In this document: piece after piece, positions 17,209 through 50,859 of the stretch
How the letters are laid out: each line of letters begins with the position of its first letter
Numbering within the stretch: position 1 is the stretch's first letter
Source of the DNA: Amphiscolops sp. MND2022
Taxonomy: Eukaryota
Reading direction: 5' to 3'
DNA length: 64,000 nt
NCBI GenBank assembly: GCA_964187785.1
Contig: OZ076411.1
Location: forward strand, 86,614,001-86,678,000
Program-made: the position numbers and the translations under genes
The notes under the pieces: model-generated
The model's input: only the letters and a program-made list of their open reading frames with translations
Told to the model about the DNA's origin: nothing
The model's database searches: none

Positions 17209-17213
17209 ATTTT

Positions 17214-24140: not shown

Positions 24141-24271
24141 TGTTGACAGTAAGAACTCCAAAACTTCATACTCTGAAACTCAAACTTTACTGACTTCTAT
24201 TTCCACCATTTTTCTAGTTTGTTCACTCTTTCTCAATTCCACTCTTCATTCAAGTTGCTTTACTCAAACCA
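24141..24271 (+). repeat. BEL/Pao 3' LTR (131 bp)
   Basis: Near-copy of 17077-17208; preceded by purine tract AAGGGGG at 24126-24132. Confidence 0.93.
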
Positions 24272-27970: not shown

Positions 27971-29461
27971 TGTCGCACGCATGGATAAATTTCAGTTCTA
28001 CTTTTTTACAGTTTCCTCTTTTAGAGGGGAATTCCAAATTTGTTATCCGTATTAGTCAGCTCAGCTGTTACAACATTTTGCAAAGTGCTTTTCAGACAAC
28101 TGTTGTTTTATTGAAGTAGAACAAGTAGAAAAGTCTCAATAACTTAATTTTTTGTAATACCGAAAAGAAAGTGCCTTGCGTGTACGTGCGAACAAAGGAA
28201 CTTGCGTGAGTAAGTGCAAGGCAGTGAATGTAAATGAGCTCTCTGAACTATAAAAAAAAAGCATATGTTAGCAAACTTGTTGAATTACATAAAAGAGCTG
28301 AACTTCAGGACATAATAAAATTCTTCAGACATAACAGTTTTTATTCAACTGTTTACAATATTCAGTCAACTCACCAAATTTATTTACCAGCAACAGAAGT
28401 AATAACTTAGCTATTTCAATCTAGGGCACAAATTGATGAATACATTTAGCATCGAAGGAAATTCATAGTAATTTCCTTTAGTTCGAAGAAAGTTTTTTAC
28501 GAAAAATTCAGTTTCGGTGTTGTAATAACTTAGACAACACTATTTAATTTTATAGTCTCTACTCCTTTTCTTTTAGGAATAGCATTAAGACTTTTTTGAA
28601 TATGGGAATGGTAAAGACAAATTGGTTAATAGGGGAAAACCGCAGAATTAAATCAGCGAAATTATTCTAAGATATAATTTTAACAACCGCAGAATTGAAT
28701 CAACGGAATTATTATAAGATAGAATCCGCGGAATTAAATCAGCGGAATTATTCTAAGATATAATTTAGTTAGAAAGAGGGAGAGTAAAAAAATCTCCTCT
28801 AAAAGAAAAAATCTAAGATATTTTCGACTCACCAAACTGGAGACCAAGTTGAATTGAAGAGAATTTTCTAAGATAGAAAATTCTGTTGGGGAATAGAGAA
28901 AAAGCAAAGATAAGTTTTTACTTGAGAGAAGGGAGAAAAGGAGGAAAGTTAGACTTTATAAGTCAGAGATAAGGCAAGTGCAAAGTAAGCAAAGAGAAAG
29001 TTGGGGAATAAGAGTCGAGGGAGAGAAGGGGAAGAGTATGTGTAAGAGAAGTGGAGGGATTGAGAAGTTGAGGAGAGAGAGAGCTGTAAGTTGAGCTCAG
29101 CCGTCCGGCGGGAAAGAATGAATCTCCAGCCTGTGCGCGCGGTATAAAAACAGTTCAGCACAGCTGTTGAAGTGCCTGGCCGGCATGTGTTGCATGCTAC
29201 CAATGGTAGCTCAGCTTTAAAATTCAAATATCCGCGGTAAGAAATAGAAATTTTCACTAGTGCAATTCCTTTCCCGTAGTATTCCATTACTTATTACTCC
29301 ACTTCGAGGCCGCCGCGTTATGGCCGCCGCCATATTTACTTCAACTTTCCACTCTCCACACAACGTTAGTTCAAGTTTTATGTTTCTCTTTGCACGTGTT
29401 ATTTTTTTATAATAGAAAGCGCCTTTTGGTGATTCGTTAGAGCGTTAGTCATAGCGCGACA
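27971..29461 (-). repeat. 3' LTR of the gypsy element
   Basis: Copy of 44270-45760 at offset 16299; minus-strand TATAAAG at 28954-28960 and AATAAA at 28340-28345 and 28107-28112. Confidence 0.97.
28640..28766. repeat. Three ~40-47-bp repeats inside the LTR (also 44939-45065)
   Basis: ccgcagaattaaatcagcg(a/g)aattattctaagata unit starting at 28640, 28687 and 28726. Confidence 0.8.
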
Positions 29462-29473
29462 GCTCACCCCCCT
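29462..29473 (-). promoter_or_regulatory. Polypurine tract
   Basis: Minus-strand AGGGGGGTGAGC directly abutting the 3' LTR start. Confidence 0.8.
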
Positions 29474-29575
29474 GGCAGGGTGAAAAAGCAACAACTTTAC
29501 TAGAGAAATTTGGGGTCAGGTCAAGAAAGAGGTATTAGGTGAAAGAGCATGAGGGAAGGGGGACATGTTTTAGCA

Positions 29576-30478
29576 CTAGGGTTTAGAAAAAAGGGGTCTG
29601 TCAAATTGAATTTGGATTATGACGGAGTCATTGTTTAGGAAGGCTTCTCTAAAGTTTACCAGGAGTTTTGTGTGCGCGATGAAGTCTTCTCTCATCAGTC
29701 CTGGGAGTGTGTAGTCGTTCTTGTGCGGGTCTTCATACTCTTCTGTTTTGGAGGGATAGGGAAAGGAGATGGACCATTTGTTGTTCTTGTCTTTTTGGTC
29801 TATGATTGAGACGATCAATTGTTGCTCGAAAGGCCACGTTCGTGGGAGAGTGAAGTCGCTGGGGTGTAGATCACAAGAAATTGAGGAATGGGTTCCGCGG
29901 AAGATGTTGGCGCCATAAGGGAATAGTCTGAGGGATATTTTGCAGCCGGTTAGGTGGGTAGTGTAGATAGGGCTAGTGAAGCTATTTTTGATGTTGTTCA
30001 ACGCATCATTCGGGGAGGTCTTTGCTTTTCTGTATAGTGTGGAAAAAGCGGGTATGTGCCAAAGGATGGGTTCACCGCTTCTTGCGTCTAATACGTTGGT
30101 TTTGTTGAGTAGGGCGCCTTGAAACTTGATTGTCGCTTGTAGATCGGATATTGTGAGTTCCAAGTGATTACATTTAGTCCGCGTTTCTTCTGTCAAGTTT
30201 TGGAGTTGTTTCATTTCACTAGCAAGCTTTGTTCTAGACTGTTTTATGTCGGTTATGGGGAACGATTTCCTTAGGATCGGGGTTACCTTTTCACTTTGTG
30301 GGCTAGTTGAGACTTCTAGTTCAGCGATCCATTTGTTCAATCTTTTGATTCCCTCGAGTGTCTCGAGGTCATCTTTATTCTCTGTCCTGGATAGAGGTGG
30401 CCAGTCGTTAGCTTTGGGGAAGTAAGGAGTGCTTTTTGGGATGAAGGGGATAGCGTCTGGGTTTAGCCTCCGATTCAT
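29576..30478 (-). CDS. PAM2 motif + coiled coil + TRAF-type MATH domain protein (300 aa), retroelement accessory gene
   Basis: N-terminal RRLNPDAIPFIP (PAM2 LNPxAxxFxP); heptad region LASEMKQLQNLTEE...LELTISDLQATI; TRAF-C motifs GEPILWHI, FTSPIYTT..GCKISLRLFPYG...RGTHSSI, WPFEQQLIVSIIDQ, FIAHTKL, FLNNDSVIIQIQFD. No RING or zinc fingers. Confidence 0.9.
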   Translation of the reverse strand: MNRRLNPDAIPFIPKSTPYFPKANDWPPLSRTENKDDLETLEGIKRLNKWIAELEVSTSPQSEKVTPILRKSFPITDIKQSRTKLASEMKQLQNLTEETRTKCNHLELTISDLQATIKFQGALLNKTNVLDARSGEPILWHIPAFSTLYRKAKTSPNDALNNIKNSFTSPIYTTHLTGCKISLRLFPYGANIFRGTHSSISCDLHPSDFTLPRTWPFEQQLIVSIIDQKDKNNKWSISFPYPSKTEEYEDPHKNDYTLPGLMREDFIAHTKLLVNFREAFLNNDSVIIQIQFDRPLFSKP

Positions 30479-31077
30479 TGTGCTGAGATGGCTCTTAGGG
30501 GGACCGTTAGTCTTTGTCCCTTTAGGGCTGGGTTCTCTATGGTGTACTCTTGTCTCTTGTTATCCCAGAAAACGATTTTCCAAGTTGAGAATTGTGGGAG
30601 GAGAGTGTATTTCAACTCTGTGTTGAATCTGGGTTTCTTAACGTGTCTGGCTCGTTTAGTGAAGTACTCCCGCTTGTGTTGTTTCTTCAGTGGCGTGTCA
30701 TCTGTTATTTTGTCATTCCATTGTTGTTGGTGTTTCCTGGGTAGTGCCCGTCTTATGTCTTTTCCGCCGAAGCGGGGTGGATGTTGGGGCGATCGAGGTG
30801 GATGTTGAGTTGATGGGATAGGCGCTACCTCTTCTGTAAATGACAGCGGAAAGGGGAGTTGTAGTGATGTCGTTGGAGAGGGTGTTGTTGTTAGGGCGCT
30901 TGGAATCGGAGAAGGAACTGTTGAGTCTGGGGGATCTAGGAGAAAGGTAATAGTTGTGGGAGAAGCAGTTGACAGCAGGTCAGAAGGTGATAAGGGTTCT
31001 ATCTGCAAGTCGTCTTCTAAGATAGAGTTAGGGATGTCGTCGTCCAGGTTTGGGAGGTCGAATAAGGGTTCTAAATT
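30475..31077 (-). CDS. AUG-less open frame (~200 codons): acidic/Pro-Thr-Ser-rich N-part, basic NLS-like segment, small beta-rich C-terminal domain; probably a spliced exon
   Basis: Open from 31077 to TGA 30475 with no Met (the track start at 31008 is TTG); tttag acceptors at 31078 and 31071; stop overlaps the next AUG (AUGA). Confidence 0.6.
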   Translation of the reverse strand, partial: NLEPLFDLPNLDDDIPNSILEDDLQIEPLSPSDLLSTASPTTITFLLDPPDSTVPSPIPSALTTTPSPTTSLQLPFPLSFTEEVAPIPSTQHPPRSPQHPPRFGGKDIRRALPRKHQQQWNDKITDDTPLKKQHKREYFTKRARHVKKPRFNTELKYTLLPQFSTWKIVFWDNKRQEYTIENPALKGQRLTVPLRAISAQ

Positions 31078-31108
31078 CTAAACGTAAACTACGAAATGAG
31101 ATAATAAT

Positions 31109-33256
31109 TCATATTGGAGCAACAAAGCTCTGTACCGAGGGATATAGTGATTCCTCTTTTTGTTTTAGGATTTGGAGTTCTACTCCTTTTTCTTCGTCTT
31201 CTGTTTTTACCCTTTTGTCTTCGATGCTATCCTCGAAAGGGGCCCGCGGGGTAAATACGGAAGTTAAAACAGAGGTAAAGAAAAGGTTATACGAAGCACT
31301 GAGCAAGGTTTTAGTGAAGCTCAGTGTGTTACCCGTAAGGTGACGAAGTTCGAAGTAGCGGAAGACTAGTACCGTGATATCTATGACGAACTTGATAAAA
31401 AGGAAAGCGCCAAAGTACGCTCCGCAGAGTTCTAGTACATAAGATATACTTCCGAATGTTTCGAGGAACTGATTTTTAAAGTAGTCGGGTGAAATCATTC
31501 CGTCGACATAGAAATCTGTACGAGGTGCGTAATACGCGAAGGATTCTGGTCCGCTGTGGGCCATGGAGGGTATGATGAGCTCTCTTGAGAACTTCTGGAG
31601 GGCATTACGTGATGCGGCGCTGATGAGGATGTTGTCCCAAAACTCGGAGAGTTGCTTGGGAGTGTACATTCCCGCGTCCTGTGATCCTGGGAAAGATCTG
31701 GTAATCATTGGCTGGATGTCTTTGGGTCCGAAGATAGCAGGCCGGTCCCGATGTTCGGGTGAAGGTGTAAGGGTGAACCAGGAGTCCTTGTCTTCCATGT
31801 CCAGTTGGAAGAGGTTCTTAATACGATCTGTGCAGTTTTGTACGTTCGCGTTAGGATATGTTTGTCGGGTTATGGGGTCTACAAAGGCGACCACTCCCTT
31901 GTAGAAGATTGGTATGCGGTCGTAGCATTGGTTCATCGTGTGAAGAGGTGAGTGGGATTCCGGGCAGTGGTAGAGCCATGCGAGGCTACCATCTGTGTTC
32001 AGGAACATCGAGCGATTTCCCGTGAGCATGTATCCGGCGAGTCGTGGGTTTTCCATGGATAACATCAGGATGGTAAGGATTTGTGTTCGTTCTTGCTCAC
32101 ATTGAGCTTTCAATAGCTGGATCTCTGAAGCTTCGAGTAAGCGGGTGCTCTCAAAGAAGAGATAATCTAACTTGGTTCCTTGGTGGAGTTCGTAATCCAT
32201 GTTGAGATAATGTGGTGTGTTGGGGTTGGAGTCGCTGGGGCCTCTGAAGAGGTGGAGTCTGCCATTACCAGAACCATCGTTGGGTGAGTAATATTGAAGT
32301 TTGGAGGTTTCTCCCATGGAGATGCCGAGTCGTCTGCCAGAAGTCATGTCGAAGCCACCAAATTGGGTCGAAACGTAGAGGGATTCGTAATTGGTAGGGT
32401 AGACATCATCGGGTTTGTTGCAGTATTTCTGTGGCCTGTTGTATATTTCGAATAGGAACTTGGTAGTGGAGTCGTTGCCGCTAACTATATAGTAGTTAGA
32501 GCCATGTTTGATCATATTCACTATTTCTTTTCTGTGGACTGCGAGCACGCAGTTATCTGGCTCTGCCCATGTATAGGCGTACGGGTCCAATGACGTGGTT
32601 TCGCAGCCGAGTTGTTCCAGGGGGCAGGGGAGAACCATCTGGAAGGGTGTGAGGATTTTCCCGTCTCTGGTTTTGACTGATAATTCTACGTCTTGAATAT
32701 GAGATTCGAAGGTTTCGCGTTTAATCCATCCGCCTGTCTTGCACTCATTACGGGTATCAGGGTCACGTACTCCATCCCAACTTTTTCCGTATTTGGCGTT
32801 TCTCGTCTGTACTTGTTTGACTCCTTTCTTAAATTTGAGGGGTTGTCCATGGATCATGACTTCTTTGCCTTCGCCCATGGCCTTACAGGTTTCGGGTGAC
32901 AAGGAAATATCGCTGGTGATTCCGTTGTGTAGGATTGACATACTGGAGTGGTCATTATGACCACAATGCCATTCTTCACTCTGGTGTTTCACACGGCACA
33001 TAGTAGCGTTGATAGTGCGACGAAAGTGTTTAGTGTATAACGTCACGCTAGCACGACTTACTTCTAAGTTTTCCGGGGCCACATTGCATTGCTCTACTTG
33101 ATTTAAGGCGTAGAGCTTATTTTGTGTCATTTCGCCGCAGTCGAAATGAGTTACTCGCAATTTTTTAGCAACGCTAGCGAGGTTTGGCGTTGAACGTTGT
33201 GAGTTCACAACGGGCGCGAAATTGGCGCATAAGAAGAGTAAGAAAAATAATTTCAT
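31109..33256 (-). CDS. env: Envelope glycoprotein, chuvirus-G-like / class III fusion type (715 aa)
   Basis: Signal peptide MKLFFLLFLCANFAPVVNS; HFDC..x..LYALNQVEQC; CRVK..x..HCG; MDYELHQGTKLDY; QCEQERTQILTILMLSMENPRLAGY; DGSLAWLYHCP; QCYDRIPIFY...FVDPITR...NC; C-terminal TM ISYVLELCGAYFGAFLFIKFVIDITVLVF. Confidence 0.88.
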   Translation of the reverse strand: MKLFFLLFLCANFAPVVNSQRSTPNLASVAKKLRVTHFDCGEMTQNKLYALNQVEQCNVAPENLEVSRASVTLYTKHFRRTINATMCRVKHQSEEWHCGHNDHSSMSILHNGITSDISLSPETCKAMGEGKEVMIHGQPLKFKKGVKQVQTRNAKYGKSWDGVRDPDTRNECKTGGWIKRETFESHIQDVELSVKTRDGKILTPFQMVLPCPLEQLGCETTSLDPYAYTWAEPDNCVLAVHRKEIVNMIKHGSNYYIVSGNDSTTKFLFEIYNRPQKYCNKPDDVYPTNYESLYVSTQFGGFDMTSGRRLGISMGETSKLQYYSPNDGSGNGRLHLFRGPSDSNPNTPHYLNMDYELHQGTKLDYLFFESTRLLEASEIQLLKAQCEQERTQILTILMLSMENPRLAGYMLTGNRSMFLNTDGSLAWLYHCPESHSPLHTMNQCYDRIPIFYKGVVAFVDPITRQTYPNANVQNCTDRIKNLFQLDMEDKDSWFTLTPSPEHRDRPAIFGPKDIQPMITRSFPGSQDAGMYTPKQLSEFWDNILISAASRNALQKFSRELIIPSMAHSGPESFAYYAPRTDFYVDGMISPDYFKNQFLETFGSISYVLELCGAYFGAFLFIKFVIDITVLVFRYFELRHLTGNTLSFTKTLLSASYNLFFTSVLTSVFTPRAPFEDSIEDKRVKTEDEEKGVELQILKQKEESLYPSVQSFVAPI

Positions 33257-33336
33257 TGTTGAAATTCTTCAGTCTGTTTTTGAATCAACCGTGTAATCGC
33301 TCCCTGTTAAAGAATCAGTTTAAGTGTTTAGTAGAG

Positions 33337-33788
33337 ACCGTAAAGAGGCAAGCCGTAATATCAAACCGGCAGCTTAGCTGGCACAACACTAAGCGGAGGT
33401 TAAAATTTTATAGTAGTAACCTCACTACTGTTAAAACGTGCCGAGGGGAACGATAAGTATTTTATTATTTCAGGGAAATAGGTGTGTGTTCCAGAAAGGA
33501 GGATTCGTAGTAAGGCCGTAAAAAGGCAAGTCGTAATATCAAACCGACAGCTTAGTGGGCACTAGCACTAAGCGGAGGTTAAAATTTTATAGTAGTAACC
33601 TCACTACTGTTAAAAAAGTGCCGAAGAGTAGGTTAATTATTGAAGCTTTAGTATATTTTATTATTGAGGATCCGTTATAAGGCCGTAAAAAGGCAAGCCG
33701 TAATATCAAACCGGCAGCTTAGTGGGCACTAGCACTAAGCGGAGGTTAAAATTTTATAGTAGTAACCTCACTACTGTTAAAAAGTGCC
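33337..33788 (-). ncRNA. Three tandem copies of a ~107-nt structured cis-RNA module (double pseudoknot plus two hairpins) upstream of env
   Basis: Copies at 33337-33442, 33515-33622 and 33682-33788; complementary segments AGUAGU/ACUACU, GAGGUU/AACCUC, GCUUAGUG/CACUAAGC, GGCAC/GUGCC, GCCG/CGGC; compensatory change GCCG/CGGC to GUCG/CGAC in the middle copy. Confidence 0.75.
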
Positions 33789-33833
33789 AAAATAGGAAGT
33801 TAAAAGAGACTAACTTCAACCATTGCTGAAAGT

Positions 33834-34178
33834 TCAATTGTAGTTGTCACGGATTGATTGTAGACTGGGAGAGGTTTTGTTTCGTCGTCTCAATTCGAGG
33901 AAGTCAATGAGCTTGTTGAGGAGGAACAGTGTTAGAGGGTGGATGTGGTCGAGATAGGCAATTTGCCTATATTCCTTTAGTGCGAGTGAGAGATCAGTAG
34001 CCTCTTGGGAGTTGGTGTCAACTGGGATGAGCCAATGTCCTGGGTTTTGTGGTCGGAGGCTATGGAGTTCGATTTGTAGTGAAGGTGCGTTTTCTTTCCA
34101 AGCGATAGAGAGAATTTCGAGAAGTGTATTTGTTTCAGGGTGGCGCCAGAGAAACTTGAGCTGAATCTTAAACATCAT
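33834..34178 (-). CDS. Small accessory ORF A4 (114 aa), unknown function
   Basis: ATG-initiated, overlaps the A3 stop by 11 nt, same A/C-rich sense-strand composition as gag-pol, shares a motif pattern with A1-A3. Confidence 0.65.
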   Translation of the reverse strand: MMFKIQLKFLWRHPETNTLLEILSIAWKENAPSLQIELHSLRPQNPGHWLIPVDTNSQEATDLSLALKEYRQIAYLDHIHPLTLFLLNKLIDFLELRRRNKTSPSLQSIRDNYN

Positions 34179-34563
34179 AAGTGTCGACTAGGCTGTGAAG
34201 GTATTTGATTCTAACTTCTTCTTCAAAGGGGTTGGAGGTGAGAGTGATGTCCATAAAGTAAACCAAGTCGTCGAAAGCCTTGTCTTTGAGGACTGCAGGG
34301 TGTTGGAGTATATATTGCTTGAACGATAGGAATAAGTAAGCGTATTCCTTGGAGCCGAAGTGAATAGGGAAGAGGACTAGAGCTTCTTTGTCTTCTGGTG
34401 TGAGTATACGCACTTGAATTGCAGAGGTAGTGATCTCGTAGAAGATTGACTGTATTTCGTATTGGCCCTTGAGTTGTATGGGGGTCCAAGGAACAGGAGG
34501 TTGAAACTGTGTGTGGAAGTAGTAATTATTTCCGCGGAACACGGCGACTGCGGGAGAGGACAT
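34168..34563 (-). CDS. Small accessory ORF A3 (131 aa), unknown function
   Basis: Starts in a TAATG stop-start overlap with A2. Confidence 0.7.
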   Translation of the reverse strand: MSSPAVAVFRGNNYYFHTQFQPPVPWTPIQLKGQYEIQSIFYEITTSAIQVRILTPEDKEALVLFPIHFGSKEYAYLFLSFKQYILQHPAVLKDKAFDDLVYFMDITLTSNPFEEEVRIKYLHSLVDTYDV

Positions 34564-34784
34564 TAAATGACTGACTTGGCTCTTGTGACGACTTCAGTAG
34601 GGGTGTTGTTATATAGCAAGCTCTCCAGTAGAGGGTAGATGGGTGATGCTGGCACACAAGTGTAGGTTTCACTTTCTTCTTCAGCTATTGCGTATGCTTG
34701 TATGATGATGTTTTGCGTTGAGGGTTCCTTCTGGATATCGGTGATTTGTGAAAGACGGTTGTCAATTTTGAAGATTATGATCAT
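34563..34784 (-). CDS. Small accessory ORF A2 (73 aa), unknown function
   Basis: ATG directly preceded by acceptor-like tatctcacag; ends in TAATG. Confidence 0.6.
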   Translation of the reverse strand: MIIIFKIDNRLSQITDIQKEPSTQNIIIQAYAIAEEESETYTCVPASPIYPLLESLLYNNTPTEVVTRAKSVI

Positions 34785-35029
34785 CTGTGAGATACTTCAG
34801 TGTTCACTGTTGTTCAAACATAGCAAATCTGAGAATGGAATCATCAGTTATTTCATTGCCTTTGGGAACTTATGTATTTGAAACATATGAACATGACCCT
34901 TTTTGGGGCACATGGTTGCATGCAGAAAAGTAAAGAATCGACATTGGTCTGTATTGTGTGATAGTGAGGTATATGATTAAATAAATAGGTGTTATAAATT
35001 TCTATTACTAGGTATTTATATAGTTTTAC

Positions 35030-35731
35030 ATGACTTTTGATAAGCACAATGTTGTGTTTAGAATGAGCAACAATCAGAACTTTTCGGACTACTACGAGGA
35101 GTCCTCGACCGACGAAGAGTCGGGGAATGGCCCGACAACTGTGTCTTCTAGTTCTTCTGCAGCTGGTCCGTCCTCTGCTGCTGTTAGTGCTGTGTCCTCC
35201 GCTTCGTCTTCTGCTGGTCGGCCCTCTACTGCTGTTAGTTCTGTGTCCCCTGCTTCTTCAGCAGGTCCGTCCTCTAGTGGTGGGTCGTTCGTGGCGGTTG
35301 TGGCCCCGAGGACTGACAGTATTGTGCCTCAAGCGCCTGCTACTATTGCCCGGGGAGAGCTGGAGAACCCGGCTGAGCAGAGCTTTATGGGGCTCTATAC
35401 CCGCCGAGACGTGAACCGCCTGGAAAACTGGGCGTCTCTAACCAGTTCTCTTCGGGGGACTCCAGGGTTCTCTGTCTCGGGGCCTCCCGGTCCCAATTCA
35501 TTATTTAGTTTCATGCGGGCTAACCTGGGGGCCCGTTGGGAGCAGACCCTATTGTCCCCTCTTGGTGAAATCATAATTTTCCAGTTGCGAGCCTACATAA
35601 ACGGCTTTTCGCAACTGACCAGTTTCGAGAGGGGACAGTGGTCCCGTCTGTATTCTTTGTGGACCATGGGAGAGCGGGCGGCTCAGCTGCGGCGCTTGGC
35701 GGAGCGAGGAGGGTTCCTGGAGATTGAGTAG
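35030..35731 (+). CDS. Antisense accessory ORF (222-233 aa; Ser/Ala-rich N-half, predicted helical C-domain)
   Basis: 702-nt open frame opposite to all other element ORFs; second ATG at 35063 directly follows tttag. Confidence 0.65.
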   Translation: MTFDKHNVVFRMSNNQNFSDYYEESSTDEESGNGPTTVSSSSSAAGPSSAAVSAVSSASSSAGRPSTAVSSVSPASSAGPSSSGGSFVAVVAPRTDSIVPQAPATIARGELENPAEQSFMGLYTRRDVNRLENWASLTSSLRGTPGFSVSGPPGPNSLFSFMRANLGARWEQTLLSPLGEIIIFQLRAYINGFSQLTSFERGQWSRLYSLWTMGERAAQLRRLAERGGFLEIE

Positions 35732-35888
35732 GCGTACATCGCCTCTCATCTCCAGGAAATTACTATTTTTCTATGCTTCTGTGCTTGTGGCTTTTCGTAA
35801 GTCATGTTCGGGATTGCACAAAAAATATCGATAAACTAAAGTAAAGTAAATTAATGGTAATACATCGTTAATAGGTTAAATGTGCCGG

Positions 35889-36275
35889 CTAGGAGCTAGG
35901 TGAGGAAATAGTGGAGCAGCAGAATAGGTCCTTCTGAGTATTAGGTGGTGAAGGTTGTAGGTCAGGAATTAGGGTAGGCATGTAGGATAAGAGTTCTTCT
36001 AGGATAGGGTCGTGATGGTTGACTGCATGGTATGCTAGGTGTTGATATAGTTGAGCAAACGTTTTTGATTCTGGGTGAACATGAAGATTTGATTTTCGGG
36101 GCGTAGGTTGTTTGTGGGGGCTCGGGTCTGGGTCGTTGGAGTAGAAGCAAATTCTAACTAGTTTGTTTGTGTAGGTCCAGTAGATTTTTGTGATTGTAAC
36201 GTGTAGAACGTTTAAAGATTGGAGTTCTCGTGGAACTTGCCATGGTAGGTTTAGGTAAACTTTATGACAAGGCAT
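35889..36275 (-). CDS. Small accessory ORF A1 (128 aa), unknown function
   Basis: ATG 8 nt after the pol stop; shares a motif pattern with A2-A4. Confidence 0.65.
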   Translation of the reverse strand: MPCHKVYLNLPWQVPRELQSLNVLHVTITKIYWTYTNKLVRICFYSNDPDPSPHKQPTPRKSNLHVHPESKTFAQLYQHLAYHAVNHHDPILEELLSYMPTLIPDLQPSPPNTQKDLFCCSTISSPSS

Positions 36276-36283
36276 GACGCAGA

Positions 36284-39200
36284 TTAGGCTTTGTAGCCTA
36301 CTCGAGTTTTTTGTCGAAGTATGGACAATGGTGCTGGTTGATTGGGTTGTGCTCGCTGATAGCGGGGATTTCTCTCGACGTGACTTGCCACCGCTCGTCT
36401 GAGTTCTTGTAGGGGTGTCAATGATTTAGTCGAAGTCGTCGGAGTGGTAGTCAAGGGTTCGGGTGTTATTTGTTGCGTCAGTGTTTGGATAGGAGTAGTT
36501 GAACCAGGAGGACGGGATGTAGTAGGCTGATCCGGAGTTGTTGGTGTTCCCAACCGGTGATTTTCTGGGGAAATAATACCAGAGTCGGTGCTCTGGGGAG
36601 TTCTCACTCGTTTTTGTGCGGTGGTCTGTCTTTGTTGGTTTCGGACTGGTAAAATGCAGAGATCCCCGAGTATCTGTGGTTCTGAAACATTAAGTCGTTC
36701 TATTCTTCCTTTGACAAAATTGTTATAGAAATCCGTGTCTCCACGGTAGGGAGTTGTGTATTCTTCTATAAGAGGGGGGAGTGTTTCCTCTTTGGGAAAG
36801 TATTCTATTAAATGATTTCTATGGACAGTTCGGAGATTTTCGGGGTTCTGATCGTCTTTTATTTGGTATGTTGTGTTGGTGATTCTCTTGGTAACCGTAA
36901 ACGGTCCTAATCGCAGTTGTTGAAGTTTTTGACTTTTGGAGAGGTCTTTCCGATGGTTTTCTAACAAAACCTTTTGTCCGATGTTGAGATGGCTGCCTAG
37001 TTTAAATCTGTTTCTGTAGGCATGAGATCGAGCTGTTTGTTTTCTGCATTTTTCGTAAGTGGACGAATAGATTTTCTTGAAGGCGGTCTCTCTTTCAAGC
37101 AGGTTTTGAGATAGTTGAGGTCTTAATAGTCCATTCAGCAGTTCGTTTTTAACTTGGTTTTCGCTGTGGCAGTGAGGAGGCAGTCCGTTGCAGAACTGTG
37201 ATCTGCAATTCTTGTTTTTATTACGGTATAGACCCAACTTAAGACTCATAGGTATCTGTGGTTTATTGCAGAAGACTATTTCGTATGGTGTCTTTCCAGT
37301 GGTATAGTTGACGCTTGTGTTGTGGGCAAATGCGAATTTAGCAGCTAGTTGGGCCCAGTTGTTTCCTGAGTCGTTTAAGAAGTTTCTCCAGTACCTTGCA
37401 ATGTGTTGGTTTTGGGTTTCCACTTTTCCGTTAGTCCAGGGTGAGTGTGCAGTTCTTGGCCGGAGAGTGATGCCTAACTCTTTAGTCCAATTGACGAATT
37501 CAGTGTTTACGAAAGCCGTTCCTCTATCGTGTATGATAGACTGCGGTATCCCATAGTGCATAATCCATTTTTCCATAGCGTTGATTGTTGACTGTGCACC
37601 TGTGTCTCTAACTGGGTATGCCATCAAGTAGCGTGAAAATGCGTCGATGATGAGGAGGCAATGTGAATTTCCACGACTGGGAGGGTTGAGTGGTCCCTTG
37701 TGATCGATATGAACAGTTCTGAATACTTGGGTCTCGGTTTCACAGTCCTCCAGTGGGACTTCGTAATTTCTTCTTTGTTTGGATTTGTTAGATTGGCAGC
37801 TAACGCAATCTTGTGTGAGGGCACAAATCCAGTCGTGCATCCCGGGCCAGTAGTAGAATCTTTTAGCATTTAGGTAGGTTTTCTCGGCTCCCATATGGCC
37901 TCCGAGGTCGTTGTAGTGTCCTAATCGGAAGCAGGCGAGAAATAAGGAGAGTGGTAAGCATATTCGAAGATTTTCTTCTTCCGTCTTATCTGTAGGTTCA
38001 TTGTAGCACAGTAGGTTTCCGTTTTCTTCTATGGTCAATCTATCAAACTCTTGGGAATAGCGCATGAGTCCTTTAGAGTGTTGTAATTCTGGTGATTTTG
38101 GCGTAGGCCTGTTTCCGGTTTGTATCCATCGTCGAACCACACTGAGCACCGGGTCATTGATCTGTTCTTGTAAGATTGTTGTGACGTCTAGATCCACTTC
38201 TTTTGATATTTTGTCGAGTTGACTGACGAGCTCTCGGGCTGGGGTCTTGTGTTTTTCCGTTGAATTTGTAGGTAGACTGAGGTGTTCTATTGCCTTTGCA
38301 TTTTCGGGAATACCTGTGTTACGTGCGGTGAGATCTTCAGTGTTGAGCTCGTAGTTGGTCTCGTTTACTTCATGACTTTGGTTGTCTGTGCAGGCTTCAT
38401 CATCTGCATCGCTATTGATGGAGCTGTAAGTATTCTGAGACGAATCGGAAGTGCTATCCCTTGTCCCGGATCTGATTTTTAGCTCTGAAAATTTTCCTAG
38501 TTCTCTTCCAGCGTCGAGACAACTCTGTGCTGACTCTATTTTCGGCAGGTTAGGTTCCTCGTAGATATTGTTAACTGTGAAGTTATTTCCATCGTTTTGT
38601 AGGTGAAGAATTTTTCGTTCATCTCCTTTTTCGTACAGGATGGGGTAGAAATCGTTTTTTGACGTTTCTTCGTTTTCTTCGTGTTTTATTTTGTAGTGTA
38701 TTTGGGTTCCATGCTCGTCGAAGAAGTGAATATCGTTCGGTAGGATTTTGTGACTGAGTTGATGTTTTTTGTGTTCTTCTATCGATACGTTTCTGCTGAG
38801 TATATCAGGGAAGGCTAAATTGCTTCCTGGGGTCCAAATTATCTTGAGATTTGGGAATTTAGAGATTATTACTTGGTACCTGAAGAAACGCGGTGAAACT
38901 TGTCCTTTTCGTCCCCAGAGATAAAGAATTGGTTTGTGGTCACAATATAAGTAAATTGGAAAGGGAGATCCAATGATATAGTGTTCGTAGGTTTGTAATG
39001 CTGAGACTATTCCACATAGTTCTCTATGTAGAGTAGACATTTTTTGTTCTTCTTTTGCGAAGACTCTGGAATTGAAAGAAATGATCCGTTTCCCTTCTGG
39101 AAATTGTTGTATGAGGATACATCCTGTCCCTACGTTGGAAGAGTCGACGTGTATATGAAAGGGATATTTTGTTGAAGGTACTGCAAGAACTGTGTCTTCG

Positions 39201-41791
39201 CTGATTCTTTTCTTTATTTGTTGGAAGAGGTCTTCATGTTCTTGGTTCCAACAGAAATTTGTATCCTTTTTTGTGAGTTCGTAAAAGGGTCGACTATCGA
39301 CGTGAAGGTTCTTGATGTAGCAGCTGTAGAAACCTAAGGCTCCCAAGAAGCTTTTCACTTCGGTTTTGGTTTTTGGTGATTTGAGATTATGTAGGTCTCT
39401 TACTCGTTTAGCTACGGGTTGTATTCCTTCTGCTGCAATCACATGTCCCAAAAACTTGACTTTCCTCAAGAAGAAGAGTGTTTTGTCAGGTGCCGCTTTT
39501 AGTCCCGCTTTCCGTAGTAGGTTATGGTATTCTTGAATCACTGTGAACATTTCTTGTTTACTTTTCGCTTGCATCAACGTGTCGTCTATGTAGGTGATTG
39601 CTTGTTTCTTTTTAATGAGAGGTTCGAAGTGAATTGTCATCATTCGGCTAAAGAAGCTTGGTAACCCTTTAAGTCCGTAGAATCCTCTGGTGAAGGTGTA
39701 TTGTTTCCCGCCTATGATGAAGCTTGTAAGTTTTTGTGTAGGCTCGTCTAATGGGACTTGGTGAAATGCACAGGAGAGATCACTTACTGAGAAGATGTTC
39801 CCGTTGATTAGTGTCATTATGGTTTGGATCGGTTCTAAGGGCCAGGAGTAGTTTGTTAGATCCGTCACTGAATTTAGGTATCTTGCGTCTATGATCAGTT
39901 TTACATAGTCGTGTTTTGGTTGTAGTATAATAGGATTTACGAATAAGGATCCCATTTCGTCGTCATCGCCCATCTCTCTGATAATATCGGCGTCTTTGAG
40001 TTGTGTGAGTAGCTTCTCTAACTTTTCTCTTAGGTGAAGTGGTACTTTGCTGGGTCTCTGTCTCTTCAGGATTGCTCCAGGTTCGAGTTTGATGTTAAAT
40101 TTCTGTCTGGTTTTTCCTACGTCGAATTTGTGTTGGGAGTATACATCTCTCGCATCCATTAGTTGGTCTATTAGGAGCACAAGTTCCTCGTCAGTAAGGT
40201 CTGAGTAGCGAAAGTCGAATTCTTTGATGTATTGCACTGCTTCTTTGTTCTGGTACTGAAGGTAATACTCGATCAGTCTTTCGTTGTCTTCTTTTTGCCT
40301 GAAGATTTTAAATTGCTCATCGCAGGGTGGTTGACAAGACTTTGCGTCACTCGTAAAGTCTGTCTCCAGCTCTCTATGTTTAAGGTGAAATTGCTCGGAA
40401 AATTGTTGTATCTCGTCTTCCAGCGCGTATTCGGGGTCTCCTCTCGTAGTCATAGCATAGACGTCTAGTTCATTTCTTGTATAAATTCGGAGTTGTATTT
40501 CCGAGTAGGCAAAAACATCTTGAATAATTTGTGTCACATCTTGCCATTGGAAATCTTCTAGTTCTGACGCTTCTCGTAACATAGAAATGGTCTTGATACA
40601 ATTCATTTTGGCGTGTGCTTTTAGAGTCTCTAGCGTTTGGACTAAGATTTGTGGGTCGATTTTGTCTTTTGATTTAGCTTTTGTGATTAGGACGTATATG
40701 AATCGTTTTAGATTCATGTCCCAGTAAGGTATTGTATCCCCTTTGAGTGGTTTCTGTTTTGCGCAAGATTCTTTTAACAAGGGTATGTTCGTTAGGATTT
40801 CTTTCGAGAAGCCTTTGGCTGGCTTCAGATCTGCCGGGACAAAGATCATGATGGAGTCGGGTCTGCTGAGGATTGTAGTAGAATTTCCTCCTTCTATTCT
40901 GATGCAATCGTTCATATCTTGTGAAGGGATGGTGGAGTGCAACAGGAAACAGTCATTGTATTCTTCGTTTTCGTTTAGGATAGCGTAGGCGAGTTCCGTA
41001 GGGTTTCTAACTTGGTATTTTGGAATTTCTTGGTCTAATACGTCGAGCAGAGAGTATCCAATAGTTCCTTTTACTAGGGTGATTGTATGGTTTTTGTTAT
41101 TTTCCATGACGATTGGCAAAGTCTTCTCAAATCTTGTACAAAGGACATTTATAAAATTTAGTCCTGTAGAGACTGCTTTTCTGTTGGGTAGGAACGTAGA
41201 TCCGGGAGGAAAGGAGTTCTTGGGGTTTTCCGGTGCAAATTTGTAACATCTTGTCGTCTTTGGTTCGATATACATTGAGTGAGGAATTCGGACTGAGAGT
41301 ATTTGTGATACGTAGGGGTAACATTTGTTGAGTTGTAGACTGCCATAGCAGAAAGTATTTATAGGTCTTTTGAGTTCTATGCCAGGAAGATCAAAGTGTA
41401 TTTTGTTAACTTGTTCTTGACAGAAGTTCATTCCAAGGAGGTTTTGGGTCTTCATCTCTGTTATCCAGACTGTCAGTGGGAAGTTATGTTGTCCATCGGA
41501 ATCGTAGTAGAGTTTAAGGGTGATGTATCCCATCATAGGGATGATCTGCCCAGAGTAGTTCCGTGTTGTGTTGTTACTTCTGCTGAGTTCGAGGTCTTGT
41601 TGAAATTGACAGAGTTCTCTAAAGGTCCTGTAGTTAATGATTGAAGATGTTGCCCCAGTGTCTAGTAGAAATTCGATTTCTAAGCCACTATCTTTTTGTG
41701 AGTCTCCGGCAGCAAAATAATAAAGATTAAGACTAAATTTTAGTGGGGCAGTGCTGCTGTTACGGTTTTTCGGAGACCTTAATAGTTTAAA
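36284..41791 (-). CDS. pol: Pol (protease, macrodomain, RT, RNase H, integrase with GPF/Y tail), expressed by -1 frameshift
   Basis: Frame open from 41791: FLLDTGATSS (PR, near 41660), RT DLSCAFHQ / FYGL / YIDD / FLGH, RNase H HVDSS / RELCG / YCDHKP, IN HYNDLGGHMG..CVSC, HIDHKGP, IHDRGTAF, NGKVE, LGPFTV. Confidence 0.96.
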   Translation of the reverse strand, partial: FKLLRSPKNRNSSTAPLKFSLNLYYFAAGDSQKDSGLEIEFLLDTGATSSIINYRTFRELCQFQQDLELSRSNNTTRNYSGQIIPMMGYITLKLYYDSDGQHNFPLTVWITEMKTQNLLGMNFCQEQVNKIHFDLPGIELKRPINTFCYGSLQLNKCYPYVSQILSVRIPHSMYIEPKTTRCYKFAPENPKNSFPPGSTFLPNRKAVSTGLNFINVLCTRFEKTLPIVMENNKNHTITLVKGTIGYSLLDVLDQEIPKYQVRNPTELAYAILNENEEYNDCFLLHSTIPSQDMNDCIRIEGGNSTTILSRPDSIMIFVPADLKPAKGFSKEILTNIPLLKESCAKQKPLKGDTIPYWDMNLKRFIYVLITKAKSKDKIDPQILVQTLETLKAHAKMNCIKTISMLREASELEDFQWQDVTQIIQDVFAYSEIQLRIYTRNELDVYAMTTRGDPEYALEDEIQQFSEQFHLKHRELETDFTSDAKSCQPPCDEQFKIFRQKEDNERLIEYYLQYQNKEAVQYIKEFDFRYSDLTDEELVLLIDQLMDARDVYSQHKFDVGKTRQKFNIKLEPGAILKRQRPSKVPLHLREKLEKLLTQLKDADIIREMGDDDEMGSLFVNPIILQPKHDYVKLIIDARYLNSVTDLTNYSWPLEPIQTIMTLINGNIFSVSDLSCAFHQVPLDEPTQKLTSFIIGGKQYTFTRGFYGLKGLPSFFSRMMTIHFEPLIKKKQAITYIDDTLMQAKSKQEMFTVIQEYHNLLRKAGLKAAPDKTLFFLRKVKFLGHVIAAEGIQPVAKRVRDLHNLKSPKTKTEVKSFLGALGFYSCYIKNLHVDSRPFYELTKKDTNFCWNQEHEDLFQQIKKRISEDTVLAVPSTKYPFHIHVDSSNVGTGCILIQQFPEGKRIISFNSRVFAKEEQKMSTLHRELCGIVSALQTYEHYIIGSPFPIYLYCDHKPILYLWGRKGQVSPRFFRYQVIISKFPNLKIIWTPGSNLAFPDILSRNVSIEEHKKHQLSHKILPNDIHFFDEHGTQIHYKIKHEENEETSKNDFYPILYEKGDERKILHLQNDGNNFTVNNIYEEPNLPKIESAQSCLDAGRELGKFSELKIRSGTRDSTSDSSQNTYSSINSDADDEACTDNQSHEVNETNYELNTEDLTARNTGIPENAKAIEHLSLPTNSTEKHKTPARELVSQLDKISKEVDLDVTTILQEQINDPVLSVVRRWIQTGNRPTPKSPELQHSKGLMRYSQEFDRLTIEENGNLLCYNEPTDKTEEENLRICLPLSLFLACFRLGHYNDLGGHMGAEKTYLNAKRFYYWPGMHDWICALTQDCVSCQSNKSKQRRNYEVPLEDCETETQVFRTVHIDHKGPLNPPSRGNSHCLLIIDAFSRYLMAYPVRDTGAQSTINAMEKWIMHYGIPQSIIHDRGTAFVNTEFVNWTKELGITLRPRTAHSPWTNGKVETQNQHIARYWRNFLNDSGNNWAQLAAKFAFAHNTSVNYTTGKTPYEIVFCNKPQIPMSLKLGLYRNKNKNCRSQFCNGLPPHCHSENQVKNELLNGLLRPQLSQNLLERETAFKKIYSSTYEKCRKQTARSHAYRNRFKLGSHLNIGQKVLLENHRKDLSKSQKLQQLRLGPFTVTKRITNTTYQIKDDQNPENLRTVHRNHLIEYFPKEETLPPLIEEYTTPYRGDTDFYNNFVKGRIERLNVSEPQILGDLCILPVRNQQRQTTAQKRVRTPQSTDSGIISPENHRLGTPTTPDQPTTSRPPGSTTPIQTLTQQITPEPLTTTPTTSTKSLTPLQELRRAVASHVERNPRYQRAQPNQPAPLSILRQKTRVGYKA
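40480..40910 (-). other. TARG1/OARD1 (Poa1p)-like macrodomain inserted in Pol between PR and RT
   Basis: RFIYVLITKAKSKDKIDPQILVQTLETLKAHAKMNCIKTISMLREASELEDFQWQDVTQIIQDVFAYSEIQLRIY aligns by eye with the C-terminal half of human TARG1 (RYIYYLITK...LQKSLEAMKSH...[34 protein letters not shown]). Confidence 0.82.
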
Positions 41792-43233
41792 GGGCGAATA
41801 TCGGCGACAGAGTTCACCGAGTAATCTGTTTCGAGAAACTGTACGGTGTTATGTCTTCCCATGTCGTTAGTTCTAGGGAACCTTTGTTCGTAGGTTTGAG
41901 TGGGGGTGTTTGGTCTTTCGTTTCTGTTTTGTGGTCTATTAAAGACTGAGTTATTCCTTGGTGGAAGAGGCTGTATGTTGCGGTTGAAGGAGTTAGGCTG
42001 GTCTCTGTTGAAGCTGAACGGAGATCTTGCTCTTTGGGGCCCAGGAGAAACACTTCTGGAATTGTTAGAATTGTTTAGAAAAGGTCTTCTTCCTTCTTGT
42101 GAAAATCTTTGGTTACCAGGACTGAATCTTGTATTCATAGGTCGGCGTTCTGGGTTGAAATTTCTTCTTTGTGGTCTATCATATTGGTTCCGGGCAGGGT
42201 TTGACTGCATGGCTCCAGCAAGTGCTAGTTGATGTGCCACAGCCATATGTTTTCTGATTTCTGAATCGGGTAGTCTAGTTTGGAATCTAGAACCATGTCC
42301 AGGTCCAGTTCTTTTGTTGTAATCGTTGGTGAAAGTTATTCGTCTCTCTGGGTTGGATTCATTTTGAACTTTCTTGATTTCTTCATCTCTCATCTTCTTT
42401 CTGCACCAGTTAGGCGTATGCCCATTTGTTCGGCAGTAGCTGCAAAACCTGGTGGCCATTCTACGTCCTGTTGCGTTCGGATCAACAGTTTTCTCTATTG
42501 CATTGATAGTGTTGTTCGTCTGTTCTTTGATTTGTAGCTTGATTCCTTTGATGTCTTCTCGCAATTCTTGGATGAGTGGGTCTGCGTGTGATTCTCCACC
42601 GGTGAGAGAGGTAGTTACTGTGTAAGAAAGGTCTTTGTTTATTACAGCTTGAGAGAACTGCTCCCAGGTTGCATTCGGATGATCCATTAAGTATTCGTGT
42701 GCCTTTTCCCTCAGTTTCGGGGGTCGAAGGCCTCTCAGTGAGTAGTCAATGCACCTCTGTCTTCTTTGTCTGTCTTGTGCTGCTCTTTCGGCGTCTCTAT
42801 TGTTCTGTGCGACTCCGGCTAGATCATCTGGCCATCCTTTTCCGACTACTATTTTAATTCTGTGTAGGAAGTTCTTTATTTCTTCTCCATCTCGTCTGAT
42901 GACGTGTTCGGCTTCCATTCTGTGTCTAAATTTGTTTCTGCCATCTGCGAATCGCGTTATGAACCTCTCTCTGATTTCTACCCAAGTGTTAGCGTCTGTG
43001 ATGCTGGTCTCGAACCACTCTGCTGCGGGTCCTCTTAATAGTGTAGCAAAATAGGATTTTCTTCTGAAGTTGTAGTCATCAAGTGCTGGTCCGTTGGCCG
43101 GGGTATCACCGTGAGAAAACCGGAACTTCTTTTCAATGAGCTGTATGAATTGTTCAGGATCTTGATCTGGGTCTGTTCCTGTGAATTGGTCTCGGCCTAG
43201 GTCTGGATAAGCCAAGTAATTTTGCGCAGCCAT
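41779..43233 (-). CDS. gag: Gag (484 aa) with one CCHC knuckle
   Basis: Retrotransposon capsid-like LRGPAAEWF...W.EIRERFITRF; CSYCRTNGHTPNWC (CX2CX4HX4C); Arg/Asn/Pro-rich tail. Confidence 0.93.
   Translation of the reverse strand: MAAQNYLAYPDLGRDQFTGTDPDQDPEQFIQLIEKKFRFSHGDTPANGPALDDYNFRRKSYFATLLRGPAAEWFETSITDANTWVEIRERFITRFADGRNKFRHRMEAEHVIRRDGEEIKNFLHRIKIVVGKGWPDDLAGVAQNNRDAERAAQDRQRRQRCIDYSLRGLRPPKLREKAHEYLMDHPNATWEQFSQAVINKDLSYTVTTSLTGGESHADPLIQELREDIKGIKLQIKEQTNNTINAIEKTVDPNATGRRMATRFCSYCRTNGHTPNWCRKKMRDEEIKKVQNESNPERRITFTNDYNKRTGPGHGSRFQTRLPDSEIRKHMAVAHQLALAGAMQSNPARNQYDRPQRRNFNPERRPMNTRFSPGNQRFSQEGRRPFLNNSNNSRSVSPGPQRARSPFSFNRDQPNSFNRNIQPLPPRNNSVFNRPQNRNERPNTPTQTYEQRFPRTNDMGRHNTVQFLETDYSVNSVADIRPLNY
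41785..41791 (-). promoter_or_regulatory. -1 ribosomal frameshift heptamer U_UUA_AAC
   Basis: Gag reads CCT TTA AAC TAT TAA; the heptamer is in the correct X_XXY_YYZ phase and the -1 frame is the open pol frame. Confidence 0.8.
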
Positions 43234-44248: not shown

Positions 44249-44266
44249 GCCTCACTGGTCGCACCA
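44249..44266 (-). promoter_or_regulatory. Primer-binding site (18 nt)
   Basis: TGGTGCGACCAGTGAGGC begins 3 nt after the 5' LTR end; complementary to a tRNA-like 3' end ...GCCUCACUGGUCGCACCA. Confidence 0.85.
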
Positions 44267-44269
44267 GTT

Positions 44270-50638: not shown

Positions 50639-50859
50639 GTATGAGACGTGTTCCATGAGTTCAATATTGACTGGTAAAATCAAATTTTTAGCAGAATCAC
50701 TGGAAAATCACGCCTTGAGAGATGAAACTGAACAATCTTATTCCGAAAAGTTGATTTCAAAACGTAGTTTTAATCAGAGCTTCCACAGTTCCAAAGAACT
50801 TCTACAAAGACTAGATGAAATCTACTATCTTTCACTGAAAACCTGGTGTGCATTAATTT

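What the first reader, a model, noticed from the sequence alone, without database searches (positions are those of the whole stretch)
33834..36275. Four small accessory ORFs share a hidden motif pattern: possible paralog array of a new domain
Seen: block 1 A1 TITKIYWTYTNKLVRICF, A2 QITDIQKEPSTQNIIIQA, A3 EIQSIFYEITTSAIQVRI, A4 EILSIAWKENAPSLQIEL (I-x-x-I-x-aromatic-x6-h-x-h); block 2 A1 HVHPESKTFAQLYQHL, A2 TCVPASPIYPLLESLL, A3 PIHFGSKEYAYLFLSF, A4 PVDTNSQEATDLSLAL (S-x-x-[YFA]-x-x-L-x3-[LF]). Identity is low, so homology is an inference. The beta-beta-beta-alpha layout recalls the C-terminal half of PH/FERM-F3 folds. Diverged duplicates are typical of host-interaction factors in an arms race.
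Basis: partly seen in the sequence, partly recalled or inferred. Interest (0 to 1): 0.7.

Follow-up and report, generated by a model that had tools for sequence, protein, structure and literature searches.

The report
Triplicated unknown protein in animal retrotransposon
An intact, envelope-carrying jumping gene holds three (possibly four) distantly related copies of a small protein with no recognisable family or fold, probably used to bind host or viral partners as the accessory genes of complex viruses do.

Summary
The four ORFs and all eight quoted blocks are real. They lie between pol and env of an intact 17.8-kb Ty3/Gypsy element (identical 1,491-bp LTRs, gB-like env, OARD1-type macro domain, TRAF-C gene). 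Each ORF has relatives elsewhere, A3 down to 29% identity. A1, A3 and A4 are paralogs: A3-A4 and A3-A1 profile E about 7e-5, leave-one-family-out HMMs rank the omitted ORF next among 479 window ORFs, and W, I, I, L are invariant in 18 sequences. The direct A4-A1 link is weak. A2 is unproven: no profile test detects it, though it fits 8 of 10 template positions (13 of 5,000 shuffles). The A3 model (pLDDT 84) has five strands and a helical C-terminal half; no library gave a family or fold match, and PH-like domains scored at background. Conserved columns are hydrophobic core plus two Ser/Thr; there is no membrane segment. Best reading: an old duplicated family of soluble binding modules, co-expressed by stop-start coupling, probably acting on host proteins. 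That function, translation and any arms race are inferred, not shown.

The parts
44270..45760 (-). 5' LTR, 1,491 bp
   Evidence: 0 mismatches to the 3' LTR, TG...CA ends, 4-bp target duplication
41779..43233 (-). gag, 484 aa; ends on a slippery heptamer, pol follows in the -1 frame
   Evidence: Retrotrans_gag E 4e-4, below Pfam cut-off; junction and protease motif upstream of the pol ATG
36284..41848 (-). pol frame: PR, macro domain, RT, RNase H, integrase
   Evidence: RVT_1, RT_RNaseH_2, rve, Integrase_H2C2 above cut-off; frame open from 41848
40478..40708 (-). OARD1/TARG1-type macro domain inside Pol
   Evidence: phmmer to solved OARD1, E 3.6e-10
35889..36275 (-). A1, 128 aa, paralog family member; starts 8 nt after the pol stop
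   Evidence: 7 relatives at 57-99%; profile link to A3 E 7.8e-5; gap
35030..35731 (+). antisense ORF, 233 aa, Ser/Ala-rich first half; not a member of the family
   Evidence: 0 of 2,000 shuffles of the region give an ORF this long; no Pfam or PHROG match; relatives not searched
34563..34784 (-). A2, 73 aa, conserved gene; possible truncated fourth paralog
   Evidence: 6 relatives at 71-96%; profile tests negative; template 8 of 10; acceptor-like AG directly before its ATG
34168..34563 (-). A3, 131 aa, full-length paralog; start overlaps the A2 stop by 1 nt
   Evidence: 4 relatives at 29-89%; model pLDDT 84, pTM 0.79; junction
33834..34178 (-). A4, 114 aa, paralog; overlaps the end of A3 by 11 nt
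   Evidence: 12 relatives at 55-99%; A3-family HMM 20.2 bits, 0 of 5,000 shuffles; profile E 6.8e-5
33335..33803 (.). three imperfect copies of a 167-179 bp repeat between A4 and env
   Evidence: repeat families D8, D10, D12; no Rfam match; one copy folds no better than shuffles
31109..33256 (-). env, 715 aa, gB-like/Monjiviricetes-type fusion glycoprotein with a C-terminal membrane segment
   Evidence: PF24664 E 5e-31; hydrophobic windows starting at residues 603-619
30475..31008 (-). ORF of 177 codons, Pro/Thr-rich then basic, no ATG; overlaps the next start by 4 nt
   Evidence: no Pfam or PHROG match; junction
29576..30478 (-). TRAF-C/MATH protein, 300 aa, no RING match
   Evidence: MATH_2 E 9e-12; TRAF5/TRAF4 structures E 2e-7
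27971..29461 (-). 3' LTR, 1,491 bp

Best explanation
A1, A3 and A4 are three anciently duplicated copies of one small soluble alpha/beta domain, carried as accessory genes by an intact env-bearing Ty3/Gypsy element; A2 may be a fourth, shortened copy (about even odds). Shown: the genes are conserved in related sequences, three are homologous, and what they share is a hydrophobic core. Inferred: A1 is made by reinitiation after pol or from a subgenomic RNA; A2, A3 and A4 are made from one subgenomic, probably spliced RNA by stop-start reinitiation; the proteins are non-enzymatic binding modules whose diverged surfaces grip different partners, most likely host defence or signalling proteins, alongside the element's macro domain and RING-less TRAF protein. 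My odds: paralogy of A1/A3/A4 0.9; real translated genes 0.9; host-protein-binding role about 0.5.
For: Paralogy: A3-family HMM (4 sequences) scores A4 20.2 bits (0 of 5,000 shuffles; rank 2 of 479 window ORFs) and A1 8.0 bits (2 of 5,000; rank 3). Leaving one family out, the omitted ORF ranks next after the training ORFs (E 0.034, 0.001, 0.0017). An A4 relative finds A3 by tblastn, 32.5%, E 0.002. W26, I37, I40, L77 are invariant in 18 of 18. Real genes: relatives for all four; substitutions more conservative than neutral for A1, A2, A3 (23, 8, 21 of 500 runs); codon usage like gag/pol/env; tight junctions of 8, -1 and -11 nt. Binding module: of 22 conserved columns 20 are hydrophobic and 2 Ser/Thr, none Cys/His/Asp/Glu/Lys/Arg; no 19-residue window above 1.52 hydropathy in 23 sequences. 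Context: macro domain and TRAF-C gene. Precedent: Vpr/Vpx are duplicated retroviral accessory genes that act on host proteins (PMC3990706, passages); planarian Burro elements carry TRAF-C, BIR and BCL2-like domains (PMC6431247 section 7).
Against: hhalign probabilities are only 62-63% and the profiles are shallow (Neff 1.4-2.2). The direct A4-A1 link is weak: E 0.016, 33 of 100 shuffles. A1 is E 0.13 against the A3-only HMM when all 479 ORFs are counted. A4's substitutions are not clearly more conservative than neutral (76 of 500). A2 fails every profile test. Several relatives are truncated or frameshifted copies. Only A3 was modelled, so the folds of the paralogs were not compared, and there was no run with A3-family sequences alone to show that the paralogs raised the model's confidence. 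No UGGGA TURBS motif lies within about 100 nt upstream of the three A-gene junctions. No transcript, peptide, partner or dN/dS data: the function is inference.
Confidence: 0.5

Rival explanations
1. Same paralog family, but the proteins are particle components: a matrix-like or assembly layer linking the capsid to the Env tail, with coupled translation fixing their ratio.
For: They lie directly upstream of env and are tightly coupled. The Gag capsid-like match begins at residue 61, which leaves little room for a matrix domain (inference). Size and alpha/beta layout suit a small structural protein.
Against: No membrane segment, and A3 is acidic (pI 5.2-6.4 in 4 of 4). No Gly2 in any of the four. 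Paralogs at 13-23% identity are more divergent than one would expect for a shared lattice (inference).
Confidence: 0.2
2. Same paralog family, but they bind nucleic acid and regulate the element's own RNA (export, splicing, protection from silencing), as CERV does for Cer1.
For: The element has donor- and acceptor-like sites and so probably needs to export unspliced RNA (CERV abstract, PMC10309623). A1 and A4 families are mostly mildly basic (pI 7.8-9.1 for A1). Pur-alpha, Whirly and SsgB, strands-then-helix folds, appear among the weak structural rows.
Against: Those rows are at background (Z 2.8-3.0, rmsd over 4 A; Foldseek E over 1). No Lys/Arg column is conserved across families. A2 and A3 are acidic.
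Confidence: 0.18
3. The ORFs are unrelated accessory genes and the shared pattern is convergence on alternating strands plus an N-capped helix.
For: Pairwise identities 13-23%; single-sequence scores for A1-A3 and A1-A4 are marginal (p 0.06); A4-A1 profile link not above shuffles. For A2 this reading remains fully open.
Confidence: 0.07
4. The ORFs are untranslated by-products carried along in a high-copy element.
For: No expression data; several database relatives are broken; the databases hold only predicted open frames, which favours intact-looking hits.
Against: Full-length A3 relatives at 53, 34 and 29% keep the same start and end; random decay to the tested identities leaves a stop in 95-97% of 500 runs for A1, A3, A4 and 64% for A2; a confident fold.
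Confidence: 0.05

Closest known systems
gB-type env-carrying Ty3/Gypsy elements ('ancient errantiviruses', Chary and Hayashi, PMC13524379)
   Same: LTR-gag-pol-env layout, Ty3/Gypsy Pol domains, signal-like N-terminus plus C-terminal membrane segment in a class III-type Env, recent insertion.
   Different: At least seven extra coding units (A1-A4, antisense ORF, ORF177, TRAF-C) and a macro domain in Pol. A word search of that paper's main text found 'accessory' 0, 'macro' 0, 'TRAF' 0 times; its supplements were not read.
Burro/GYPSM1 giant Gypsy elements of planarians (PMC6431247 section 7)
   Same: Gypsy element with env homology and a TRAF-C/MATH domain, read as meddling with host apoptosis and ubiquitin systems.
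   Different: Burro fuses most extras into one polyprotein of about 5,000 aa; here they are separate small genes, and no duplicated small-domain array is described in that section.
Hapavirus PMIP genes U1/U2/U3 (rhabdoviruses; PMC4334499, passages)
   Same: A run of small duplicated accessory genes of low mutual identity and unknown function; stop-start junctions occur in the same virus family.
   Different: Negative-strand RNA viruses; PMIPs have no universally conserved motif, whereas this family has four invariant residues; no sequence or fold link was found.
Lentiviral Vpr/Vpx (PMC3990706, passages)
   Same: Duplicated small accessory genes between pol and env of a retro-element.
   Different: An analogy of arrangement only; Vpr/Vpx are helical (recalled) and their host targets are known.
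MDG1-group sORF1/sORF2 (PMC11952523, abstract and section 7) and bdelloid ORF3s (PMC5408684, passages)
   Same: Small extra ORFs in invertebrate LTR retrotransposons; the MDG1 ones are shown to be translated.
   Different: sORF2 is a membrane fusogen upstream of gag in env-less elements; bdelloid ORF3s are single captured enzymes or env-like; A1-A4 are soluble and, for three, paralogous.

Membership tests
Ty3/Gypsy LTR retrotransposon (host element) | Two direct LTRs with target-site duplication | tested here: met
   1,491 bp, 0 mismatches, 4-bp duplication
Ty3/Gypsy LTR retrotransposon (host element) | Pol order PR-RT-RNase H-integrase | tested here: met
Ty3/Gypsy LTR retrotransposon (host element) | RT phylogeny within Metaviridae and clade assignment | not tested
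   no reference RT set was on hand
gB-type errantivirus | Separate env ORF after pol, class III-type ectodomain with membrane anchor | tested here: met
   PF24664 E 5e-31; membrane segment; no solved-structure match by sequence; Env was not modelled
Paralog family A1/A3/A4 | Profile similarity above shuffled and window-ORF controls | tested here: met
   met for A3-A4 and A3-A1 and in leave-one-out; direct A4-A1 not above shuffles
Paralog family A1/A3/A4 | Same three-dimensional fold in each member | not tested
A2 as member of the paralog family | Profile similarity above controls | tested here: not met
   hhalign E 0.85, 0.069, 0.16; combined profile E 0.34, 161 of 200 shuffles as high; HMM 2.0 bits, below several unrelated ORFs
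A2 as member of the paralog family | Ten-position template taken from A1/A3/A4 | tested here: inconclusive
   8 of 10 (lacks the Trp and the aromatic); 13 of 5,000 shuffles; 3 other of 435 window ORFs also reach 8; 4 of 4 full-length relatives keep 8
PH / FERM-F3 fold | Three strands followed by a helix (C-terminal half layout) | tested here: met
   E35-43, E48-54, E63-68, H72-87 in the A3 model; a common arrangement
PH / FERM-F3 fold | Seven-stranded sandwich closed by one C-terminal helix (definition recalled) | tested here: not met
   the predicted model has five strands and four helical segments; a model, not a structure
PH / FERM-F3 fold | Structural superposition on solved PH-like domains | tested here: inconclusive
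   see Tried and rejected
PC4/Pur/Whirly-type nucleic-acid-binding fold | Structural superposition | tested here: inconclusive
   see Tried and rejected
sORF2/FAST-like small fusogens | Transmembrane helix with adjacent basic patch | tested here: not met
   highest 19-residue hydropathy 0.29-1.52 in 23 sequences, against up to 2.1 in Env
TURBS-type termination-reinitiation | Overlapping or adjacent stop and start codons | tested here: met
   A2/A3 1-nt overlap, A3/A4 11-nt overlap, pol/A1 8-nt gap
TURBS-type termination-reinitiation | UGGGA motif upstream of the junction | tested here: not met
   0 of 3 A-gene junctions within about 100 nt; present 96 nt before the ORF177/TRAF junction

The most novel reading that the evidence does not exclude
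A1-A4 are four copies of a protein domain with a fold not yet in the PDB, and form a diversified anti-defence cassette. With the macro domain, the RING-less TRAF protein and an antisense gene they make this element a 'complex' Gypsy virus with a lentivirus-like accessory repertoire, and their targets would name the retroelement restriction factors of an invertebrate host.
Probability: 0.25. Interest if true: 0.8.

Novelty: new variant of a known kind. Interest (0 to 1): 0.56.

Why it matters
Extra ORFs in Gypsy elements are known, and so are duplicated accessory genes in viruses. A duplicated array of one uncharacterised, foldable domain inside a recently inserted env-carrying Gypsy element did not turn up in ten literature searches (open-access library only, judged mostly from listings). 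The proteins are small, soluble and predicted with confidence (A3), so they are easy to express, solve and use as bait. If they bind host proteins, they give a direct handle on how an invertebrate restricts retroelements; if they are particle proteins, they show how a Gypsy capsid with little room for a matrix domain gets its envelope.

Tried and rejected
Family libraries: Pfam gave nothing under E 0.06 for the four ORFs and nothing shared among 18 aligned members (best E 0.013, one member); PHROGs best E 0.023 for A2; PDB sequences by profile best E 1. ESM Atlas: no usable hit for A3; only leads under 0.9 for P0004. Fold searches with the confident A3 model: Foldseek PDB 0 matches at E 0.001, best E 0.089; the DENND3 PH-like domain was rank 2 at E 0.16, TM 0.20, rmsd 15.4. 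BFVD 0 matches at E 0.001. VIA over 48,161 chains: best Z 6.3, rmsd 2.2, 55 residues, helical half only; none at Z 8; the strand half was barely tested. VIA on Foldseek's top 999: none at Z 5; best PipX Z 4.2, rmsd 4.6, 82 residues; PH-like 3b77 Z 3.2 and 4xuu Z 3.1; Pur-alpha and SsgB Z 3.0. These blanks do not show that the fold is new. Single-sequence folding of A3 failed (pLDDT 45). An A3 + A4 complex prediction gave no answer (score 0.00, alignments not used), which is evidence neither way. No DNA similarity among the four ORFs (best E 0.19) and no second copy in the window. A dUTPase-like stretch that I suspected by eye in Pol found no solved relative. No Rfam match in the element. A guess that the host is an acoel (recalled, from no call) was not supported or refuted by a literature search; the host is unidentified.
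Full report
Verdict. The finding is mostly right: three of the four ORFs (A1, A3, A4) are homologous, the fourth (A2) is a real conserved gene whose membership is unproven, the PH/FERM resemblance got no support, and the function is inferred.

Setting. The ORFs lie in a 17.8-kb element on the - strand, 27971-45760. Its LTRs are 1,491 bp with 0 mismatches and a 4-bp target duplication, so the insertion is recent. Gene order is gag, pol, A1, an antisense ORF, A2, A3, A4, three 167-179 bp repeats, env, a 177-codon ORF and a 300-aa ORF. Pol has RT, RNase H and integrase matches above Pfam cut-offs, and Env matches Monjiviricetes_fusion at E 5e-31. Gag ends on a slippery heptamer with pol, including a protease motif, in the -1 frame. 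Pol holds an OARD1-type macro domain (E 3.6e-10). The last ORF is a TRAF-C/MATH protein. This is an env-carrying Ty3/Gypsy element; an animal host is inferred from the TRAF gene and a neighbouring BEL/Pao element, and was not identified.

Observation. All four ORFs and 8 of 8 quoted blocks are present. A2 lacks the aromatic residue of block 1; the strict pattern matches 3 of 479 window ORFs and the relaxed one 4 of 479, a circular count. Single-sequence alignments are significant only for A3-A4 (3 of 2,000 shuffles); A1-A3 and A1-A4 give p about 0.06 and the A2 pairs 0.10-0.68.

Are they genes? A3 has 4 relatives among 1.84 billion representatives, at 89, 53, 34 and 29%; the first is frameshifted, the other three are full length with matching ends. 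A4 has 12 hits of 14 candidates (55-99%), A1 7 of 14 (57-99%) and A2 6 of 6 (71-96%); none has a name or a Pfam domain, and several are truncated or frameshifted. Random decay to the identity of one distant full-length relative per gene left a stop in 97, 64, 96 and 95% of 500 runs (A1-A4), and gave substitutions as conservative as observed in 23, 8, 21 and 76 of 500. The databases hold only open frames, so the stop test is biased in favour. Codon adaptation is 0.73-0.79, like gag, pol and env (0.70-0.74) and above two alternative frames (0.65, 0.55), though strand bias explains part of that. One A4 relative and one A1 relative, both at 83%, list the same longest contig length, which suggests that they sit together in another copy; gene order in relatives could not be checked.

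Paralogy. For the profiles I dropped near-identical and broken rows: the 18-row alignment keeps 3 of 4 A3, 6 of 12 A4 and 6 of 7 A1 relatives; scripts used 4 of 6 A2 relatives, all 6. An HMM of the A3 family alone scores A4 at 20.2 bits (0 of 5,000 shuffles; E 1e-5 among 479 ORFs) and A1 at 8.0 (2 of 5,000; E 0.13, rank 3), A2 at -1.6. hhalign gives A3-A4 E 6.8e-5 (probability 63), A3-A1 E 7.8e-5 (62), A4-A1 E 0.016 (3), and E 0.85, 0.069, 0.16 for the A2 pairs. Column shuffles reach the real score in 1, 0 and 33 of 100 for the first three pairs. With one family left out, the omitted ORF ranks directly after the two training ORFs each time (E 0.034, 0.001, 0.0017). An A4 relative finds A3 by tblastn (E 0.002). 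W26, I37, I40 and L77 of A3 are invariant. In a tree each family is one group (support 98/96, 94/92, 97/95) on stems of 1.6-2.1 changes per site, and no DNA similarity is left: the duplications are old.

A2. A ten-position template taken from A1/A3/A4 is met at 8 positions, reached by 13 of 5,000 shuffles and by 3 other of 435 window ORFs; its four full-length relatives also score 8. It lacks the Trp and the second long helix. I put it at even odds as a shortened paralog.

Structure. A3 alone folds poorly (pLDDT 45); with the 18-row alignment pLDDT is 84.2 and pTM 0.79, with strands 6-10, 13-26, 35-43, 48-54, 63-68 and helices 72-87, 89-93, 95-108, 114-130. Of 22 columns conserved across the three families 20 are hydrophobic and 2 Ser/Thr, one at the start of the first helix: a shared core and no shared catalytic set. 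No member has a membrane segment. Family and fold searches found nothing above background (details under Tried and rejected), which leaves the fold unassigned, not proven new.

Expression, inferred. A1 starts 8 nt after the pol stop, A3's start overlaps A2's stop by 1 nt and A4 overlaps A3 by 11 nt. Such stop-start pairs are used for reinitiation in rhabdoviruses (PMC4334499, passages), but the usual UGGGA motif is missing at 3 of 3 junctions. Of 12 branch-plus-acceptor-like sites in the element, one lies 45 nt before A2 and one 47 nt before env; a donor-like site lies in the leader, and an AG sits directly before the A2 ATG. A spliced A2-A3-A4 RNA is plausible; an internal promoter in the AT-rich gap at 34800-35060 is the alternative.

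Mechanism. Best reading (0.5): soluble binding modules that diverged after duplication to grip different partners, probably host defence or signalling proteins, since the same element carries an ADP-ribose-removing-type domain and a RING-less TRAF. Rivals: particle or matrix-like proteins (0.2), regulators of the element's RNA (0.18), unrelated genes (0.07), non-genes (0.05). No step of the function was tested, and positive selection could not be measured.

Comparison. gB-type env-carrying Gypsy elements are widespread in animals (PMC13524379: abstract, word search, first parts of sections 5 and 6; supplements not read and could list this family). Extra ORFs are known in bdelloid elements (PMC5408684, passages), MDG1 elements (PMC11952523, abstract and section 7), Cer1 (PMC10309623, abstract only) and Burro, which also carries TRAF-C (PMC6431247, passages and section 7). 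Duplicated accessory genes are known in rhabdoviruses and lentiviruses (PMC3990706, passages). Ten searches showed no paper on this domain or on such an array in a Gypsy element; the library lacks most subscription journals and repeat databases. It works like a duplicated viral accessory-gene cassette and is a member of none of the named protein families tested. Rating: new variant of a known kind, interest 0.56.

Noticed in passing
window 35030-35731 (+): 233-codon antisense ORF between A1 and A2; 0 of 2,000 shuffles give one so long. Ser/Ala-rich first half, more ordinary second half; TATA-like words on both strands at 34993-35022 suggest a divergent promoter. Relatives not searched.
   Followed up: partly
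window 40478-40708 (-): OARD1/TARG1-type macro domain between protease and RT in Pol (E 3.6e-10). A search for macro domains in Gypsy Pol listed 2 unrelated papers.
   Followed up: partly
window 29576-30478 (-): TRAF-C/MATH gene with an upstream helical stretch and no RING match, just inside the 3' LTR; a possible decoy of host TRAF signalling.
   Followed up: partly
window 30475-31008 (-): 177-codon ORF without ATG, preceded by an acceptor-like site at 31017 and overlapping the TRAF start by 4 nt, with a UGGGA 96 nt upstream of that junction.
   Followed up: partly
window 33335-33803: Three imperfect 167-179 bp repeats between A4 and env, each with acceptor-like AG sites on the - strand; no Rfam match, no unusual folding.
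   Followed up: partly
window 41779-41848 (-): gag ends on a U-UUA-AAC-type slippery site with pol in the -1 frame; a hairpin is predicted downstream (-17.7 kcal/mol, no shuffle control).
   Followed up: partly
window 17077-24271 (+): A separate, broken BEL/Pao element (DUF1759, Peptidase_A17, DUF5641; short terminal repeats 94-97% alike).
   Followed up: no
window 53845-54624; 17410-17892; 3045-3602 and 13667-14233: A 97-bp tandem array, a 61-bp tandem array, and a dispersed repeat of about 550 bp in two copies 10.6 kb apart.
   Followed up: no
window 49820-50644 (+): 274-codon ORF with weak GTPase-family matches (AIG1 and Dynamin_N, E 0.08).
   Followed up: no
window 52043-52182: A run of 140 N (assembly gap), outside the element.
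   Followed up: no
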